From: Enterobacteria phage vB_EcoM_IME281
Sequence record: MH051913
Strand: one strand, 5' to 3'
Length of the DNA: 64,000 nucleotides
In this document: positions 15,702-41,762 of the stretch, piece after piece
How positions within the stretch are numbered: position 1 is the stretch's first letter
Layout of the letters: each line of letters begins with the position of its first letter
The notes under the pieces: generated by a model
What the model saw: only the letters and a program-made list of their open reading frames with translations
What the model was told of the DNA's origin: nothing
The model's database searches: none
Translations under genes and position numbers: made by a program

Positions 15702-16637
15702 TTATCCAATTAAAATAGGTGTTGGTGGGTCGAGTAAATCTAATTCTTCGCGAAGGCGTTCTTTTTCTAAACGAGCTTCTTCAATCAATCGAATACCATC
15801 TACAGTGGTTCCACCCGCAAGTTGCATGCCTTGGTGTTTGGCCAAAATATTACCATTGACTTCTTTAACCAATGCCGTCGCATAATCTTTGACCCAACGG
15901 TTATTATATGAACCATCTTGCAAACCAAGGTCTTCACCTGCCCTCATACCTGAAATACGACGAGCCGGGTTATCCCAAATAGCTCCAGGGCTCCATTCAT
16001 TTTCGTCGCACCCACCAGAGGCATATCCATATCCTGCAGTATTTCCTACCATAGAATCAACCCCATTAAAAGAGCGAGTATAAACTTCAATTACAATAAA
16101 ATCGCCTTTAACAAAGTTACCCATTACCTTCAACTGTTCAGTGGCATCGTTATACCAATAATCAGGCAATGGAACCAAAAGGTCCTGCATCATAGAACGA
16201 TATTGCATTAATTGTGTAAAATACCCGAGGTCAGCACCAAAGGCATTAGGCCCAAAGCTGTTACAAGAAGTTCCAAGACCGCCGTTAATACCAGCTAGGC
16301 CTAATACAAAATCAGTAAACCATGGATAAGTCGCTTGGCCATCCATAGATGTTAAAGAACCTACATTAGTTCTTAAAATTTGTGTTACTGCAAATATATT
16401 ACGGCCTTTAAGGTCAAATACGCCGTTACGGAATTTTTCTTCGTCATCATGGCCTATATAAAAAGCCTGATAACCTTTGTTATAGCCGTTATAATGATAC
16501 TCACCGTAGAGCTCCAGGGCGCGCTGGATGCAATCGTATACTTGGTCTGTAGTTACTTCAATATTCGTAATCGGTGCACCCAGGCGGCGCAGGATTGCGT
16601 CCTTGAGTTGCTTAGGGTTATATGATTCACTTGCCAT
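15702..16637 (-). CDS. 13: gp13 neck protein
   Basis: 311 aa; synteny. Confidence 0.8.
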
Positions 16638-16658
16638 GGTTTATTCCTCTAATAACCG

Positions 16659-16666
16659 TATTTATA
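16659..16666 (-). promoter_or_regulatory. Late promoter box TATAAATA upstream of gp13
   Basis: Plus-strand TATTTATA about 22 nt upstream of the start. Confidence 0.5.
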
Positions 16667-16671
16667 GCAAA

Positions 16672-16689
16672 AAAGGGCCGAAGCCCTTT
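16672..16689 (-). terminator. UUCG hairpin + T-run terminator after wac
   Basis: aaagggc-cgaa-gcccttt on plus strand (agggc-uucg-gcccu on the transcript). Confidence 0.55.
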
Positions 16690-16691
16690 TA

Positions 16692-32483: not shown

Positions 32484-32491
32484 TATAAATA
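32484..32491 (+). promoter_or_regulatory. Late promoter box TATAAATA for gp4 (plus strand)
   Basis: 26 nt upstream of the gp4 ATG. Confidence 0.55.
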
Positions 32492-32498
32492 ATATTAA

Positions 32499-32506
32499 TA
32501 TTTATA
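32499..32506 (-). promoter_or_regulatory. Late promoter box TATAAATA for gp53 (minus strand)
   Basis: Plus-strand TATTTATA 28 nt upstream of the gp53 start; interleaved with the gp4 promoter. Confidence 0.55.
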
Positions 32507-35228: not shown

Positions 35229-36112
<884 letters not shown>

Positions 36113-36124
36113 TTTAAAAAAGGT

Positions 36125-36166
36125 GTTTACAAGGTCTATAGACATGATACTATAGGCCTATCAAAC
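36125..36166 (+). promoter_or_regulatory. PeSL-like early promoter cassette
   Basis: gtttacaaggtctatagacatgatactataggcctatcaa. Confidence 0.6.
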
Positions 36167-36190
36167 CAAACCAACCACATGGAAATCAAA

Positions 36191-36415
36191 ATGAAAACTT
36201 ATCAAGAATTTATTACAGAAGCTAAAAAACACGAAGACCAACTGCCGGTTGTTACAAAAACCTTTGACGGTACATTGGCCGATTTTAAAAAAGTCCCTAG
36301 TGATAGGCTCGCTAAATTGACCGGGAGTATCGGTGAAAAAGATGGCAAGGTCACGTTTTCTGCTCAAGGTACAGCCAATCTTAAAAAACTTTTGAAAGCC
36401 GCTGGCGCAGAATAA
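36191..36415 (+). CDS. CTS-bearing small protein (MKTYQEFITEAKK…)
   Basis: Start chosen at the MKTY methionine (alternative ATG at 36179). Confidence 0.55.
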   Translation: MKTYQEFITEAKKHEDQLPVVTKTFDGTLADFKKVPSDRLAKLTGSIGEKDGKVTFSAQGTANLKKLLKAAGAE

Positions 36416-36416
36416 A

Positions 36417-36689
36417 ATGAAAACTTATCAAGAATTTATCGCTGAATCTATTCTTAATGAGGAAGTAAAAATTAACAAATCTGTTAAGACTATGATTGAT
36501 GATATAAATCATCTCTATAACATTGATTTGACTAATCATGTAACTTTAGGCAATAAGCGAAACTTTTTTGTATTTGATACTTCAGAACTTGACCAGAATC
36601 AAATTAACAATATTGAACGTTTTGCTAATGAAAAAGGGTTGCGCCACGAGACGGCTGGTTATAAAAAGTATGCAATTTATTTAAAATAA
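36417..36689 (+). CDS. CTS-bearing small protein (MKTYQEFIAESIL…)
   Basis: 90 aa; conserved N-terminus. Confidence 0.55.
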   Translation: MKTYQEFIAESILNEEVKINKSVKTMIDDINHLYNIDLTNHVTLGNKRNFFVFDTSELDQNQINNIERFANEKGLRHETAGYKKYAIYLK

Positions 36690-36691
36690 TT

Positions 36692-36733
36692 GTTTACAAT
36701 GGGCTTTAGTGATGATACTATAGCCCTATCAAA
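36692..36733 (+). promoter_or_regulatory. PeSL-like early promoter cassette
   Basis: gtttacaatgggctttagtgatgatactatagccctatcaa. Confidence 0.6.
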
Positions 36734-36757
36734 ACAAATGAGTGATTGGAGAATAAA

Positions 36758-38237: not shown

Positions 38238-38504
38238 ATGTTAGTATTAAAATTAGCTTTTTATGACCCAGAAACCAAGACAACAACTACTAAACGTTGT
38301 TCTATTTCATATGAATGCCAATTTGGCGAAGTTGAGACCGACGGCGAGCCCTTTATGGCAATTGCCGATAGCACATTCGCTAAACCAAAAATAATTCCAC
38401 TAGTTAATGCTGCGGCTTATCTGGTTGCTCCTGAAGAAATGACTTATCATACAATTCAGCACATGGCTAAAGATGATAATGCTCCTGCTGGATTTGTAAT
38501 TTAA
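38238..38504 (+). CDS. Hypothetical protein immediately upstream of the tRNA cluster
   Basis: ATG with GAGGTG SD; 88 aa. Confidence 0.45.
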   Translation: MLVLKLAFYDPETKTTTTKRCSISYECQFGEVETDGEPFMAIADSTFAKPKIIPLVNAAAYLVAPEEMTYHTIQHMAKDDNAPAGFVI

Positions 38505-38509
38505 ATTAA

Positions 38510-38583
38510 GGCCCTGTAGCTGGACGGTCAAGCGAGCGACTCATAATCGCTGGATGGTGGTTCGATTCCACCCAGGGCCACCA
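38510..38583 (+). tRNA. tRNA with CAT anticodon (Met or Ile2-type), CCA encoded
   Basis: Hand-folded cloverleaf: acceptor GGCCCTG/CAGGGCC, anticodon stem AGCGA/TCGCT, loop CTCATAA, T-arm GGTGG-TTCGATT-CCACC. Confidence 0.7.
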
Positions 38584-38587
38584 ATTT

Positions 38588-38662
38588 GGATGTGTAGCTC
38601 AGCGGTAGAGCAGTTGACTGTTAATCAATTGGTCCATGGTTCGAATCCATGCATGTCCGCCA
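38588..38662 (+). tRNA. tRNA-Asn (GTT anticodon), CCA encoded
   Basis: D-stem GCTC/GAGC, anticodon loop CTGTTAA, T-arm CATGG-TTCGAAT-CCATG, acceptor with two G-U pairs. Confidence 0.7.
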
Positions 38663-38666
38663 AATA

Positions 38667-38742
38667 CGAGGCATAGCTCAGAAGGAAGAGCAACGGTCTT
38701 CTAAACCGTAGGTCGTAGGTTCGATCCCTACTGTCTCGACCA
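38667..38742 (+). tRNA. tRNA-Arg (TCT anticodon), CCA encoded
   Basis: D-stem GCTC/GAGC, anticodon stem ACGGT/ACCGT, loop CTTCTAA, T-arm GTAGG-TTCGATC-CCTAC. Confidence 0.75.
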
Positions 38743-38910
38743 AACAAGAAACCGGGTCGCTACCGGTAAGTCGTCGGACTGAAGCTCCCTGAATAAGACC
38801 CGACTTTAAGGCGTACATGAGTTGACCTCTTAAAGTCCCTTATCTCACAGCTGAAACGGCGCACCGAACACTTGCCTAGCAGGTGGAACCCCGACAAGGT
38901 TACCCTAGGT
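38743..38910 (+). ncRNA. Candidate small stable RNA downstream of the tRNAs (analogous in position to T4 RNA C/D)
   Basis: About 170 nt non-coding, GC-richer, several internal inverted repeats, ends at a strong terminator. Confidence 0.3.
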
Positions 38911-38913
38911 GAA

Positions 38914-38943
38914 AGGCCCTTCCGAAAGGTTGGGCCTTTTTTT
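38914..38943 (+). terminator. Intrinsic terminator (aggccc…gggcct + TTTTTTT); copy 1 of a duplicated module
   Basis: Stem followed by T-run; near-identical copy at 39538. Confidence 0.7.
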
Positions 38944-38944
38944 G

Positions 38945-38952
38945 TATAAATA
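38945..38952 (+). promoter_or_regulatory. Late promoter box TATAAATA
   Basis: 27 nt upstream of the ATG at 38979. Confidence 0.55.
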
Positions 38953-38978
38953 TACAGTAAACTAACTTAGGAAATAAT

Positions 38979-39533
38979 ATGAAACTTTTAAAATATTTGA
39001 GTTGGATTCTGTTGGTCCCACTAGATTTTATCTCTATGGTTCTAGCCGTTATCCTTGCGCCTTTTGTGGTTCCTTTTCATAATAAAAAGACTGGTAAATT
39101 GCCATACGGTTTTGATTGGATGATGACATACGATAATCCAATTGACGGCGATAAAGGTCATATTAAACGTTGGGCTAAAATCAGGAAAATGCCTGGTGGT
39201 GTTTATCTCCAGAGAGTAGCTTGGCTATGGCGAAATAAAGCTTATAACTTTGCTTATCATAAACTAGGCCGTGATTGTAGCTCGGAATTCCATTATCGTG
39301 GTAATCCTGACGTAGAATCAGGTTCTCCTGATAAAGCTCACCATGGTTGGTTGTGGATGTGGAATGATGACGCCTGGGGTGTATTTGCTTCAGTTCCTTA
39401 TCTTAAGGTCGGCGGAATCACATTTTACCTTCGCGTGTACTGTGGCTGGAAGCTTAAGAGTCTTTTGTCTCGTAAAATCCCTAAAGCTATGTTGGCCTTC
39501 CACGTGAACCCGTTCCGGTTCTACAAGAACTGA
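38979..39533 (+). CDS. Late-promoter-driven protein with N-terminal transmembrane anchor, Trp-rich C-terminal domain
   Basis: 184 aa; N-terminal hydrophobic helix LSWILLVPLDFISMVLAVILAPFVVPF. Confidence 0.5.
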   Translation: MKLLKYLSWILLVPLDFISMVLAVILAPFVVPFHNKKTGKLPYGFDWMMTYDNPIDGDKGHIKRWAKIRKMPGGVYLQRVAWLWRNKAYNFAYHKLGRDCSSEFHYRGNPDVESGSPDKAHHGWLWMWNDDAWGVFASVPYLKVGGITFYLRVYCGWKLKSLLSRKIPKAMLAFHVNPFRFYKN

Positions 39534-39537
39534 TTTA

Positions 39538-39565
39538 CGGCCCTTCCGAAAGGTTGGGCCTTTTT
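39538..39565 (+). terminator. Intrinsic terminator, copy 2 (ggccc-ttccgaaaggtt-gggcc + TTTTT)
   Basis: Same sequence as the 38914 terminator. Confidence 0.7.
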
Positions 39566-39566
39566 G

Positions 39567-39574
39567 TATAAATA
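39567..39574 (+). promoter_or_regulatory. Late promoter box TATAAATA
   Basis: 29 nt upstream of the ATG at 39603. Confidence 0.55.
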
Positions 39575-39602
39575 GATAAGTTAATTAACACAGGAAACAA
39601 TA

Positions 39603-40220
39603 ATGAAAACTTACAATGAATTTTTGAACGAAAGCGTTCTGAATGAAGCCGGCGTGCGCATGACTAAAGATATGTGGCAAGCTGCTTATGATAAAATTTC
39701 CGGGACTAAAACCACTACCGAGTTCTTTAAAAACGTTTATGATATGTATGGTTTTGATACTAGTAGCCAGAAAGAATATTACAAAGCTTCCAAAGCTTTT
39801 AAAGATATCGTAGCCGGTGGCTCTACTAAGCCTGCTAAACCTGCTAAAGCTCCTGTTGCTAAACCTGCGGCTCAGCCCAAAGTTGCAGCACCGAAACCTA
39901 CACCTAAACCAGAACCTGTAAAAGAAGCTCCTAAATCTAAAATCAAGTTTGACACCAGCACTATAGTTAAAAAATATAACCAACTGGCTTCTTTAGTTTC
40001 TGAAATCGAATCTGAAACTAAACACCTTGTTCGTGAATTCAACGCTCTTCGTAACGGTCAACACATTAACAACCTGGATACCCCAGACCTGTATCGTCTC
40101 TATCTGACGGTTGAAGGCCTTAAGTATACCCAGCCTATGCGCGAAGAAATCAATAACAAACTTCGCCAAGCGGGCCGCATTGCTGGTGACGCAGCACAGT
40201 TCGAAAAGACTCGTAAATAA
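39603..40220 (+). CDS. CTS-bearing lysine-rich protein with Pro/Ala/Lys linker (IPIII-like candidate internal protein)
   Basis: 205 aa; N-terminal MKTYNEFLNESVL; KPAKPAKAPVAKPAAQPKVAAPKPTPKPEP linker; late promoter upstream. Confidence 0.55.
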   Translation: MKTYNEFLNESVLNEAGVRMTKDMWQAAYDKISGTKTTTEFFKNVYDMYGFDTSSQKEYYKASKAFKDIVAGGSTKPAKPAKAPVAKPAAQPKVAAPKPTPKPEPVKEAPKSKIKFDTSTIVKKYNQLASLVSEIESETKHLVREFNALRNGQHINNLDTPDLYRLYLTVEGLKYTQPMREEINNKLRQAGRIAGDAAQFEKTRK

Positions 40221-40224
40221 TGAA

Positions 40225-40245
40225 AGGAGACTTCGGTCTCCTTTT
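40225..40245 (+). terminator. UUCG hairpin terminator (aggagac-ttcg-gtctcct + TTT)
   Basis: 7-bp stem with CTTCGG loop. Confidence 0.6.
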
Positions 40246-40279
40246 AGGGGGTTTAATCTAAAAATAATTTCACAAAGTT

Positions 40280-40322
40280 GTTTACACCTCCTTTAAACAT
40301 GATACTATAGACCTATCAAAAC
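40280..40322 (+). promoter_or_regulatory. PeSL-like early promoter cassette
   Basis: gtttacacctcctttaaacatgatactatagacctatcaaaac. Confidence 0.6.
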
Positions 40323-40343
40323 AACAGAGTGAAGGAGAGTAAA

Positions 40344-41739: not shown

Positions 41740-41762
41740 GGGAGACTTCGGTCTCCCTATTT
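41740..41762 (+). terminator. UUCG hairpin terminator (gggagac-ttcg-gtctccc)
   Basis: Same stem as at 3619 and 40225. Confidence 0.6.

What the first reader, a model, noticed from the sequence alone, without database searches (positions are those of the whole stretch)
38914..39603. Duplicated terminator + late-promoter module flanking a late membrane-anchored gene in the early region
The sequence GGCCCTTCCGAAAGGTTGGGCC-T(5-7)-GTATAAATA occurs twice (38914-38952 and 39538-39574), each time about 27-29 nt before an ATG. It combines an intrinsic terminator and a T4 late promoter box, so it insulates the downstream genes from early read-through and puts them under late control. The first gene (38979-39533) has an N-terminal TM anchor and a Trp-rich domain, so it may be a lysis or virion-associated protein; the second is a CTS-bearing internal protein.
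Basis: seen in the sequence. Interest (0 to 1): 0.5.

Follow-up and report, generated by a model that had tools for sequence, protein, structure and literature searches.

The report
Repeated terminator–late-promoter junction bounding a swappable gene
A 37-39-base unit (terminator hairpin plus T4-type late-promoter box) sits on both sides of one accessory gene in a JS98-like T4-type phage; related phages show these units are the exact points where late-gene cassettes are gained, lost or swapped, a late-promoter version of a known shuffling mechanism.

Summary
GGCCCTTCCGAAAGGTTGGGCC occurs exactly twice (38915-38936, 39539-39560; 0.01 expected). Each copy is followed by T7 or T5, a G and TATAAATA, 26 and 28 nt before an ATG. 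The window is a JS98-like Dhakavirus.

Copy 1 is the conserved terminator of the tRNA/rnaD operon. T4 has the homologous hairpin, with one compensatory stem change and no late box.

The unit marks a cassette boundary:
- CLB_P2-type phages lack the 184-aa gene precisely. They keep one unit whose left flank matches copy 1 (59/60) and whose right flank matches copy 2 (60/60).
- JS10 has the same hairpin fused to an early promoter.
- QL01-type phages have another gene order.
- In Gaprivervirus, VR20 and two relatives show the same gain/loss, bounded by a 13-nt repeat.

The best reading is two self-contained late transcription units (promoter, gene, terminator), whose shared junctions also serve as substrates for homologous recombination. 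This resembles PeSL cassettes, but with a gp55-type late promoter.

Terminator and promoter activity are inferred from sequence only. The 184-aa protein is DUF7338: a membrane-anchor-like, Trp-rich protein with a confident model and no known fold match. Lysis or virion roles are unsupported. The second gene carries an internal-protein-type N-terminus. This is a moderately interesting new variant of a known kind.

The parts
38510..38742 (+). tRNA-Met(CAT), tRNA-Asn(GTT) and tRNA-Arg(TCT) cluster; the upstream transcription unit that copy 1 terminates
   Evidence: ARAGORN; Rfam tRNA hits of 62-71 bits
38743..38914 (+). Homologue of T4 rnaD (species 2 RNA), plus a ~45-nt trailer that is nearly invariant in T4, Dhakavirus and Gaprivervirus. 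The T4 rnaC segment is absent here.
   Evidence: Alignment with T4 and VR20; T4 annotation; T4 sequence
38915..38936 (+). Hairpin copy 1: GGCCC-UU-CC-GAAA-GG-UU-GGGCC, the stem of the tRNA-operon intrinsic terminator
   Evidence: Exact repeat; fold -19.1 kcal/mol, z -3.4; homologous hairpin after the T4 tRNA cluster; one compensatory pair, G-C to C-G
38937..38943 (+). T7 run of terminator copy 1
   Evidence: Sequence
38945..38952 (+). Late-promoter box TATAAATA, copy 1. The start site is predicted near 38958, because the box occupies -13 to -6.
   Evidence: box position relative to the start site from PMC1524935
38979..39533 (+). 184-aa DUF7338 gene, the cassette cargo. It has an N-terminal hydrophobic helix and is Trp-rich and basic.
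   Evidence: Pfam PF24027, E 4.6e-63; phrog_2143; AF2 model pLDDT 95; composition
39539..39560 (+). Hairpin copy 2, identical over 22 nt; terminator of the DUF7338 unit
   Evidence: fold -15.3 kcal/mol, z -3.3
39561..39565 (+). T5 run of terminator copy 2
   Evidence: Sequence
39567..39574 (+). Late-promoter box TATAAATA, copy 2; start site predicted near 39580
39603..40220 (+). 205-aa gene with an internal-protein-type N-terminus (MKTYNEFLNE/SVLNE) and a Pro/Lys/Ala-rich linker
   Evidence: phrog_2280; N-terminal match to T4 IPIII; three further MKTY-type genes at 35903-36689
40226..40245 (+). Stem-loop GGAGACTTCGGTCTCC plus TTTT, ending the 205-aa gene unit. The same 16-mer recurs at 41741.
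   Evidence: Repeat D11; fold -15.5 kcal/mol
40261..40324 (+). Sigma-70-type early promoter (TTTACA-16-TACTAT with TG) for e.8. Together with the stem-loop before it, this forms a classical PeSL-type element. It belongs to a 3-copy promoter repeat family.
   Evidence: Repeat D1; promoter scan

Best explanation
The two repeats are composite regulatory junctions. Each is an intrinsic terminator (a GC-rich hairpin with a GAAA loop, followed by a T-run), followed within one base by a gp55-type late promoter box.

Copy 1 is the ancestral terminator of the tRNA/rnaD operon. In many T4-like phages that terminator carries a late promoter for whatever late gene sits next to it. Copy 2 is the same unit repeated downstream of the DUF7338 gene.

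The result is two monocistronic late transcription units:
- about 38958 to 39565, encoding DUF7338;
- about 39580 to 40245, encoding a CTS-type internal protein.

Both units lie in a region otherwise run by early promoters.

The duplication is not a dedicated regulatory invention. It is the footprint of general homologous recombination between short conserved regulatory sequences. An unequal exchange inside the hairpin/T-run could produce it. The partners would be a JS10-type genome (H.PL-DUF7338-H.Pe) and a CLB_P2-type genome (H.PL-IP205). That exchange gives exactly the window's arrangement. Exchange between the two direct repeats removes the DUF7338 cassette again, possibly as a circle.

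Shown here: the repeat, its anatomy, the homology of copy 1 to the T4 terminator, and breakpoints at the unit in natural relatives.

Inferred: termination, late timing, and the direction and mechanism of the exchanges.
For: 1. The repeat is exact and non-random.

2. The hairpin folds stably and is followed by T5-T7.
- Homologous hairpins follow the tRNA cluster in T4, Gaprivervirus and other T4-like contigs.
- They show one compensatory G-C to C-G change.

3. TATAAATA is enriched in the window (16 found against 7.1 expected).
- The two boxes lie 26 and 28 nt before their ATGs. Other boxes lie 21-27 nt before their ORFs, for example the gp13-like gene at 16637.
- The box behind this terminator is conserved in front of at least six different genes across relatives.

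4. Empty site. In CLB_P2 (L001) a single unit remains.
- Its left 60 nt match the copy-1 flank at 59/60, and the copy-2 flank at only 12/60.
- Its right 60 nt match the copy-2 flank at 60/60, and the copy-1 flank at only 24/60.
- The same junction is present at 98-100% identity in IME08, SHP1, dhaeg, dhabil, C6 and ESCO10.

5. In JS10 (L002) the second hairpin is joined to an early promoter, and the IP gene and e.8 are missing.

6. Other arrangements exist.
- QL01 and vB_EcoM_005 have H.PL-IP'-DUF7338-H.Pe.
- Another genome keeps only a remnant of DUF7338 before H.Pe.
- Leaders are mosaic.

7. An independent event is seen in Gaprivervirus.
- In VR20 the late box, DUF7338 and a different hairpin are bounded by the 13-nt repeat GGGCTTTTTTATA.
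- Two relatives have the exact empty site.

8. The topology matches the published PeSL model, in which RB49 ORF192 is flanked by two elements and phi1 has a single one.

9. The window's own arrangement occurs in 8 sequenced phages.
Against: - No transcript data exist for this phage. Termination efficiency and late timing are untested.
- The hairpin has a 2x2 U.U internal loop in Dhakavirus, and the simple terminator scan did not list it.
- Covariation rests on one pair in six distinct sequences; 28 of 500 shuffles do as well.
- A late box in front of DUF7338 is not universal. QL01-type and RB43/RB16-type homologues have only a hairpin and T-run upstream.
- The VR5 deletion breakpoint lies a few bases outside the unit, so not all rearrangements use it.
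- The direction of each event (insertion or deletion) cannot be told from the comparisons.
- 22-38 nt is short for efficient homologous recombination.
Confidence: 0.75

Rival explanations
1. Purely regulatory duplication. The unit was selected twice only because each gene needs insulation from early read-through and its own late promoter. It has no role in gene exchange.
For: Terminator-plus-late-box composites also occur at a core late gene: AAAGGGCTTCGGCCC-T6-GC-TATAAATA lies before the gp13-like gene at 16666 on the minus strand. The design therefore has regulatory value of its own.
Against: - Convergent selection would not give 22 identical bases that include a destabilising U.U/U.U internal loop.
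- Breakpoints in at least four natural arrangements fall exactly at the unit.
- The same hairpin is joined to an early promoter in JS10 and QL01.
Confidence: 0.15
2. The repeats are the ends or target-site duplication of a dedicated mobile element, moved by a transposase, a site-specific recombinase or a homing endonuclease.
For: Direct repeats flank a gene that is precisely present or absent among relatives. Homing endonuclease genes are annotated near this locus in AnYang, IME540 and LHE83, and T4 carries segB in its tRNA region.
Against: - The only ORF between the repeats is DUF7338, which has no nuclease or recombinase signature.
- The repeat consists of functional host-genome regulatory sequence, and copy 1 predates the cassette, since T4 has it without the gene.
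- The independent Gaprivervirus event uses a different right-hand hairpin and only 13 nt of shared sequence.
Confidence: 0.04
3. The hairpin acts mainly at the RNA level, as a processing site or 3' stabiliser of the tRNA/rnaD precursor and of the mRNAs, rather than as a transcription terminator.
For: Copy 1 ends a stable-RNA operon with a highly conserved trailer. GNRA-capped hairpins commonly protect 3' ends (general knowledge).
Against: - A T-run follows directly in every copy and every homologue, which is the terminator signature.
- A third copy in Dhakavirus genomes sits between convergent genes, a typical terminator position.
- The two roles are not exclusive.
Confidence: 0.05

Closest known systems
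PeSL (promoter-early stem-loop) mobile regulatory cassettes of T4-type phages (Arbiol et al. 2010, PMC2839356; Comeau et al. 2014, PMC4122927)
   Same: - Both are compact composites of a stem-loop terminator and a promoter.
- Both are intergenic, lie in a hyperplastic region and sit directly upstream of accessory ORFs.
- In both, an ORF flanked by two elements in one phage corresponds to a single chimeric element in a close relative.
- The window also holds classical PeSL-type elements next door (40226-40324), and in JS10 the same hairpin is part of one.
   Different: - The promoter here is the gp55-type late box TATAAATA, not a sigma-70 early promoter. Neither PeSL paper mentions late promoters.
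- The stem-loop lies upstream of the promoter, separated from it by the T-run.
- There are 2-3 copies per genome rather than about 50.
- Mini-circles have not been tested.
Morons of tailed phages: an extra gene with its own promoter and terminator inserted between genes that are adjacent in relatives (Hendrix and colleagues; from my own knowledge)
   Same: The unit TATAAATA-leader-DUF7338-hairpin-T-run is a self-contained transcription unit. It is present or absent between the same neighbours in close relatives, in two genera.
   Different: The phage is virulent and the promoter is a late one. Expression is tied to the lytic late phase rather than to a prophage, and the boundaries coincide with resident regulatory sequences.
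Terminator of the phage T4 tRNA/rnaD/rnaC operon
   Same: Copy 1 is its positional and sequence homologue. The same conserved trailer precedes it, and it has the same CCGAAAGG core and a T-run.
   Different: T4 has GCCCC/GGGGC outer pairs and a fully paired stem. It has no TATAAATA (GGTATCTAAG instead) and no gene before the e.8 early promoter.
Polymorphic internal-protein loci of T-even phages, with a conserved N-terminal capsid-targeting sequence and variable bodies (Repoila et al. 1994; Comeau et al. 2007; from my own knowledge, not read here)
   Same: Different MKTY/MKSY-type genes replace one another behind the same terminator and late box in different phages. Exchange points lie in the leader, RBS and first codons.
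   Different: Here a non-IP membrane protein gene (DUF7338) takes part in the same exchange system, and the junction includes a terminator hairpin.

Membership tests
PeSL (promoter-early stem-loop) cassette | Contains a strong sigma-70-like early promoter (-35 and -10 boxes, with an AT-rich upstream region) | tested here: not met
   Only a 9/12 chance-level match overlaps the leader at 38951-38978, and the region's promoter-like count equals the shuffle expectation. The promoter element in both copies is TATAAATA. In JS10 and QL01 the same hairpin is followed by a GTTTAC...TACTAT early promoter.
PeSL (promoter-early stem-loop) cassette | Contains a stable stem-loop able to terminate or attenuate upstream transcription | tested here: met
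   Folds at -15.3 and -19.1 kcal/mol, z about -3.3, followed by T5-T7. Function was not assayed.
PeSL (promoter-early stem-loop) cassette | Flanks ORFs that are differentially present in close relatives, with a single chimeric element at the empty site | tested here: met
   CLB_P2-type genomes: flanks match 59/60 and 60/60. The junction is present in about 8 phages. A parallel case exists in Gaprivervirus.
PeSL (promoter-early stem-loop) cassette | Forms excised mini-circles by exchange between neighbouring elements | not testable with these tools
   This needs inverse PCR on infected cells or virion DNA, as in PMC2839356.
T4-type late promoter | TATAAATA at -13 to -6, with no -35 element | tested here: met
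   Perfect boxes at 38945-38952 and 39567-39574. Consensus as given in PMC1524935 and PMC2988020.
T4-type late promoter | Intergenic, at a short fixed distance 5' of a gene, and conserved in relatives | tested here: met
   The boxes lie 26 and 28 nt before their ATGs, against 21-27 nt for other boxed genes in the window. The box is kept behind the homologous terminator in Dhakavirus, Gaprivervirus and other contigs, with AATAAATA and CATAAATA variants.
T4-type late promoter | gp55/gp33/gp45-dependent initiation late in infection | not testable with these tools
   No transcript data for this phage or close relatives were found.
Rho-independent (intrinsic) terminator | GC-rich hairpin immediately followed by a U-run | tested here: met
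   The simple scan missed it because of the U.U/U.U internal loop.
Rho-independent (intrinsic) terminator | Stem maintained by compensatory change | tested here: inconclusive
   One pair changes G-C to C-G between Dhakavirus and T4/Gaprivervirus. There are 6 distinct sequences, and 28 of 500 shuffles reach the score.
T4-type internal protein (capsid-targeted) | N-terminal MKTYxEF(I/L)xE-type targeting sequence with (L/I)-x-E protease sites | tested here: met
   The protein starts MKTYNEFLNESVLNEA and matches T4 IPIII MKTYQEFIAEASV at 13/26. Paralogous MKTY genes in the window hit PHROGs 'internal virion/head protein' families. The 205-aa protein itself hits only phrog_2280, of unknown function.
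T4-type internal protein (capsid-targeted) | Packaged in the capsid and cleaved by the prohead protease | not testable with these tools
   Needs virion mass spectrometry.
DUF7338 (PF24027) | Full-length match above the Pfam gathering score | tested here: met
   212.6 bits against a cut-off of 27; residues 1-183 match profile positions 1-179 of 180.
Holin / lysis protein (label on some homologues) | Similarity to an experimentally characterised holin, or linkage to endolysin/spanin genes | tested here: not met
   There is no Pfam or PHROGs lysis family hit. The neighbours are tRNAs and an IP gene. The 'holin' label in vB_CbrM_HP1 is similarity-based and stated to be unverified.

The most novel reading that the evidence does not exclude
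A late-promoter class of mobile regulatory cassette ('promoter-late stem-loop') exists alongside PeSLs. Under this reading, the conserved tRNA-operon terminator plus TATAAATA acts as a docking site. Late-expressed accessory genes (internal proteins and the DUF7338 membrane protein) are exchanged there among T4-like genera, possibly through excised circles. DUF7338 itself has a confident fold with no solved relative and occurs in Straboviridae, Felixounavirus and Pseudomonas phages. It would then be a widely traded late-phase envelope-acting protein with a function not yet described.
Probability: 0.35. Interest if true: 0.55.

Novelty: new variant of a known kind. Interest (0 to 1): 0.4.

Why it matters
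Accessory genes of T4-like phages have been described as riding on early-promoter/stem-loop cassettes. An earlier five-genome survey found late promoters only in front of T4 late-gene orthologues (PMC1524935).

This locus shows the same shuffling logic applied to late transcription units. A terminator conserved from T4 to Dhakavirus carries a late promoter, and at least six different genes are plugged in behind it. In JS98-type phages it is duplicated around a non-T4 gene.

This gives a concrete, testable case for three questions:
- how virulent phages add late-expressed functions without disturbing neighbouring operons;
- how short a homology suffices for such exchange;
- what the widespread DUF7338 protein does.

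It is also useful for annotation, because the unit, the rnaD homologue and its trailer are not annotated in the JS98 and JS10 records read here.

Tried and rejected
- Rfam (E up to 1) over 38300-39700 found only the three tRNAs. A sub-threshold BjrC68 hit overlapped the trailer and hairpin (22.8 bits against a cut-off of 39). I treated it as chance.
- The simple terminator scan did not report the hairpin because of its internal loop. Direct folding was used instead.
- PADLOC gave no defence-system match for either protein.
- A full-text search for 'DUF7338' found no paper.
- A search for JS98 with late-promoter and internal-protein terms found nothing on this locus.
- The 'holin' label on homologues traced back to unverified similarity.
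- I considered a transposon-like or homing-endonuclease origin and rejected it. The cassette has no enzyme gene, and the independent Gaprivervirus event uses different flanking hairpins.
- The exact 22-mer also occurs in two unrelated GC-rich viral contigs (L005, L012). I did not pursue this and cannot say whether it is chance.
It is cited from memory only.
Full report
**What is there.**

The window is a T4-like phage of the genus Dhakavirus. Region 38400-40320 is 98.0% identical to Escherichia phage UP19 and 97.7% to JS98.

The gene order around the finding follows T4:
- 57B;
- several MKTY-type internal-protein genes;
- trna.4, trna.3 and trna.2;
- tRNA genes;
- then e.8 and e.6.

The 22-mer GGCCCTTCCGAAAGGTTGGGCC occurs exactly twice, at 38915-38936 and 39539-39560. 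No further copy appears with up to three mismatches. The chance expectation is 0.01.

Copy 1 continues with T7-G-TATAAATA and copy 2 with T5-G-TATAAATA. Sequence identity stops immediately on both sides. The repeat is therefore 36-38 nt, with a start-to-start spacing of 624 nt.

**Anatomy of one unit.**

As RNA the 22-mer folds into a 5-bp GC stem, a 2x2 U.U internal loop and a 2-bp stem capped by GAAA.
- Copy 2 folds at -15.3 kcal/mol.
- Copy 1 folds at -19.1 kcal/mol, because an A-run extends the stem.
- Both have z about -3.3.

A T-run follows directly, which is the intrinsic-terminator layout.

One base later comes TATAAATA. In T4 this box occupies -13 to -6 of late promoters (PMC1524935). 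It is matched perfectly at 32 of 50 T4 sites (PMC2988020).

The window holds 16 such boxes against 7.1 expected. The two boxes here lie 26 and 28 nt before their ATGs. Other boxes lie 21-27 nt before ORFs, including a gp13-like gene.

That gp13-like gene (box at 16666, minus strand) is also preceded by a hairpin, T6, GC and TATAAATA. The terminator-plus-late-promoter composite is therefore a normal design element of this genome, not something peculiar to this locus.

**Copy 1 is an old, conserved terminator.**

Downstream of tRNA-Arg lies a homologue of T4 rnaD, joined directly to a ~45-nt trailer (GAACACTTGCCTAGCAGGTGGAACCCCGACAAGGTTACC). The trailer is nearly invariant in T4, Gaprivervirus and Dhakavirus.

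In T4 the trailer is followed by AGCCCCGACCGAAAGGTTGGGGC-T5. This has the same core, is fully paired, and differs in one outer pair by a compensatory G-C to C-G change. T4 has no late box after it (GGTATCTAAG) and no gene before the e.8 early promoter.

A scan of viral contigs for the trailer found the same terminator in many T4-like genomes. It is usually followed by TATAAATA (or AATAAATA) and then by different genes. These include DUF7338 and at least five different MKTY/MKSY-type internal-protein genes.

In Karamvirus (Pet-CM3-4 group), DUF7338 again follows a tRNA, a hairpin, T5 and CATAAATA.

**The unit is a cassette boundary.**

Relatives show at least eight arrangements between the trailer and e.8/e.6.

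1. CLB_P2, IME08, dhaeg, dhabil, C6, SHP1 and ESCO10: one unit, directly followed by the 205-aa gene, with no DUF7338.
   - The left 60 nt match the copy-1 flank at 59/60.
   - The right 60 nt match the copy-2 flank at 60/60.
   - The cross-comparisons give only 12/60 and 24/60.
2. The window, JS98, UP19, MN04, EcWhh-1, Esco_phi_B-01, AnYang, KIT01 and NC-G: two units.
3. JS10: H.PL-DUF7338, then the same hairpin plus T6 joined to a sigma-70 early promoter. The 205-aa gene and e.8 are absent.
4. QL01 and vB_EcoM_005: H.PL-another IP gene-a different hairpin-DUF7338-H.Pe.
5. A 172-kb genome (L011): only the first ~17 and last 52 nt of DUF7338 remain before H.Pe.
6. VR5: DUF7338 is joined to the last ~30 nt of the 205-aa gene.
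7. VR20 (Gaprivervirus): H'-T5-TATAAATA-DUF7338 (81% nt identity)-CAGCCCGCATTGCGGGC-T6.
8. Two relatives of VR20 have the exact empty site. The 13-nt repeat GGGCTTTTTTATA bounds the cassette.

Leaders are also mosaic. In QL01 the DUF7338-type leader is fused to an IP start codon.

The window's arrangement equals the left part of a JS10-type genome joined, inside the hairpin/T-run, to the right part of a CLB_P2-type genome.

**Mechanism.**

The best-supported reading has two parts.

Regulatory part (inferred):
- Copy 1 stops the tRNA/rnaD transcripts.
- Each box starts a gp55-dependent late transcript.
- Copy 2 and the GGAGACTTCGGTCTCC stem-loop at 40226 end these transcripts.
- This gives two monocistronic late units among early-promoter units.

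Evolutionary part (supported by natural variants):
- The conserved regulatory sequences are the homology on which the phage's general recombination system exchanges, deletes and duplicates cassettes.
- Arbiol et al. proposed this for PeSLs. In their example, RB49 ORF192 is flanked by two elements and phi1 has a single one, with excised mini-circles.

Direction cannot be decided from the comparisons. DUF7338 follows the tRNA terminator in three genera, so presence may be ancestral and the CLB_P2 state a deletion between the direct repeats. This is inference.

**Comparison with PeSLs.**

The unit fails one defining feature of a PeSL, the sigma-70 early promoter. Neither PeSL paper mentions late promoters.

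It meets the others that can be tested: a stem-loop, a position in a hyperplastic region, and flanking of differential ORFs.

I therefore file it as something that works like a PeSL but is a late-promoter variant, not a member. It also fits the moron concept of promoter, gene and terminator present or absent between the same neighbours.

[quoted passage not shown] DUF7338, a non-T4 gene with a perfect late box, is an exception to that generalisation.

**The two genes.**

The 184-aa protein:
- It matches DUF7338 over its full length (E 4.6e-63) and phrog_2143, of unknown function.
- It has one strongly hydrophobic segment (residues ~9-33) and is 5.4% Trp and basic.
- Invariant residues include T50, D52, G57, W82, W84, R85, N86, R152, G156, W157 and K158.
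- The AlphaFold model is confident (pLDDT 95, pTM 0.84) but has no significant solved relative.
- Homologues occur in 591 phage records. These span several Straboviridae genera, Felixounavirus, Pseudomonas phages and jumbo phages. A few come from bacterial records.
- 'Holin' and 'structural protein' labels on homologues are unverified.
- A late box is not universal in front of homologues.
- A lysis or virion role is therefore unsupported. The function is unknown.

The 205-aa protein:
- It begins MKTYNEFLNE/SVLNE, like T4 IPIII.
- The window contains three further MKTY genes at the ipI locus, two of which hit internal-protein PHROGs.
- A capsid-targeted internal protein is a reasonable reading, though untested.

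**Further copies.**

An exact scan of IMG/VR found a third copy of the 22-mer in Dhakavirus genomes. It lies between convergent genes, is followed by T5-T7 and GTTT, and has no late box. It lies outside this window. Only the two copies here carry the late box.

**Verdict.**

The regulatory reading is plausible but unproven. The functional guess for the first gene is unsupported.

This is a new variant of a known kind, of moderate interest.

Noticed in passing
window 38743-38914: An rnaD (T4 species 2 RNA) homologue is joined directly to a ~45-nt trailer that is nearly invariant in T4, Dhakavirus and Gaprivervirus. T4 rnaC is absent here. In VR20 the same junction holds a ~500-nt insert with its own TATAAATA and a CTS-like ORF (MLTYAEFLN...). 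The fold pairs the 5' end of rnaD (AACCGGGTCG) with the trailer (CGACAAGGTT), which suggests one larger structured RNA. The JS98 and JS10 records list no feature here, and no Rfam family matches.
   Followed up: partly
window 16645-16690, minus strand: A second kind of hairpin-plus-late-box composite (AAAGGGCTTCGGCCC-T6-GC-TATAAATA) lies 21 nt before a gp13-like head-tail adaptor gene.
   Followed up: partly
window 32484-32506: Two TATAAATA boxes on opposite strands lie in a near-palindrome (TATAAATAATATTAATATTTATA). Each is 26-27 nt before a divergent ORF of 149 or 200 aa, apparently a divergent late-promoter pair.
   Followed up: no
window 36106-36169, 36674-36737, 40261-40324; 40226-40241 and 41741-41756: There is a three-copy family of 64-nt sigma-70 early promoters (70-83% identical). 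An exact 16-nt UUCG stem-loop (GGAGACTTCGGTCTCC) is repeated twice. These are classical PeSL-type elements framing e.8, orf132 and e.6.
   Followed up: partly
window 35903-36689 and 39603-40220: The window holds four genes with MKTY(S/Q/N)EF(L/I) N-termini. Three are in tandem at the ipI position, and their start regions form a repeat family (D2 and D3).
   Followed up: partly
window 38979-39533 (protein): DUF7338 gives a very confident AlphaFold model (pLDDT 95) with no significant match to any solved structure. It has a set of invariant polar and aromatic residues (TxDNPxDGDxGH, AWLWRNKAYNF, RxYxGWK), which suggests a binding or catalytic site.
   Followed up: partly
L005 4085-4106 and L012 547-568 (IMG/VR contigs): The identical 22-mer hairpin also occurs in two unrelated GC-rich viral contigs, followed by CCTTCTTTTT. 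It is unknown whether this is chance, convergence on a GNRA terminator, or transfer.
   Followed up: no
L006, L008, L009, L014, L015 (Dhakavirus genomes, outside this window): A third exact copy of the hairpin, followed by T5-T7 and GTTT, sits between convergent genes. The same hairpin-T-run-GTTT follows DUF7338 in JS10 and QL01.
   Followed up: partly
window 38510-38583: The tRNA called Met(CAT) may be a lysidine-modified tRNA-Ile, as proposed for the CAU tRNAs shared by T4-like phages (PMC1524935). This was not tested here.
   Followed up: no
records AnYang, IME540, LHE83: Homing endonuclease genes are annotated inside the homologous region of some relatives. Double-strand-break repair could add to the plasticity of this locus.
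   Followed up: no
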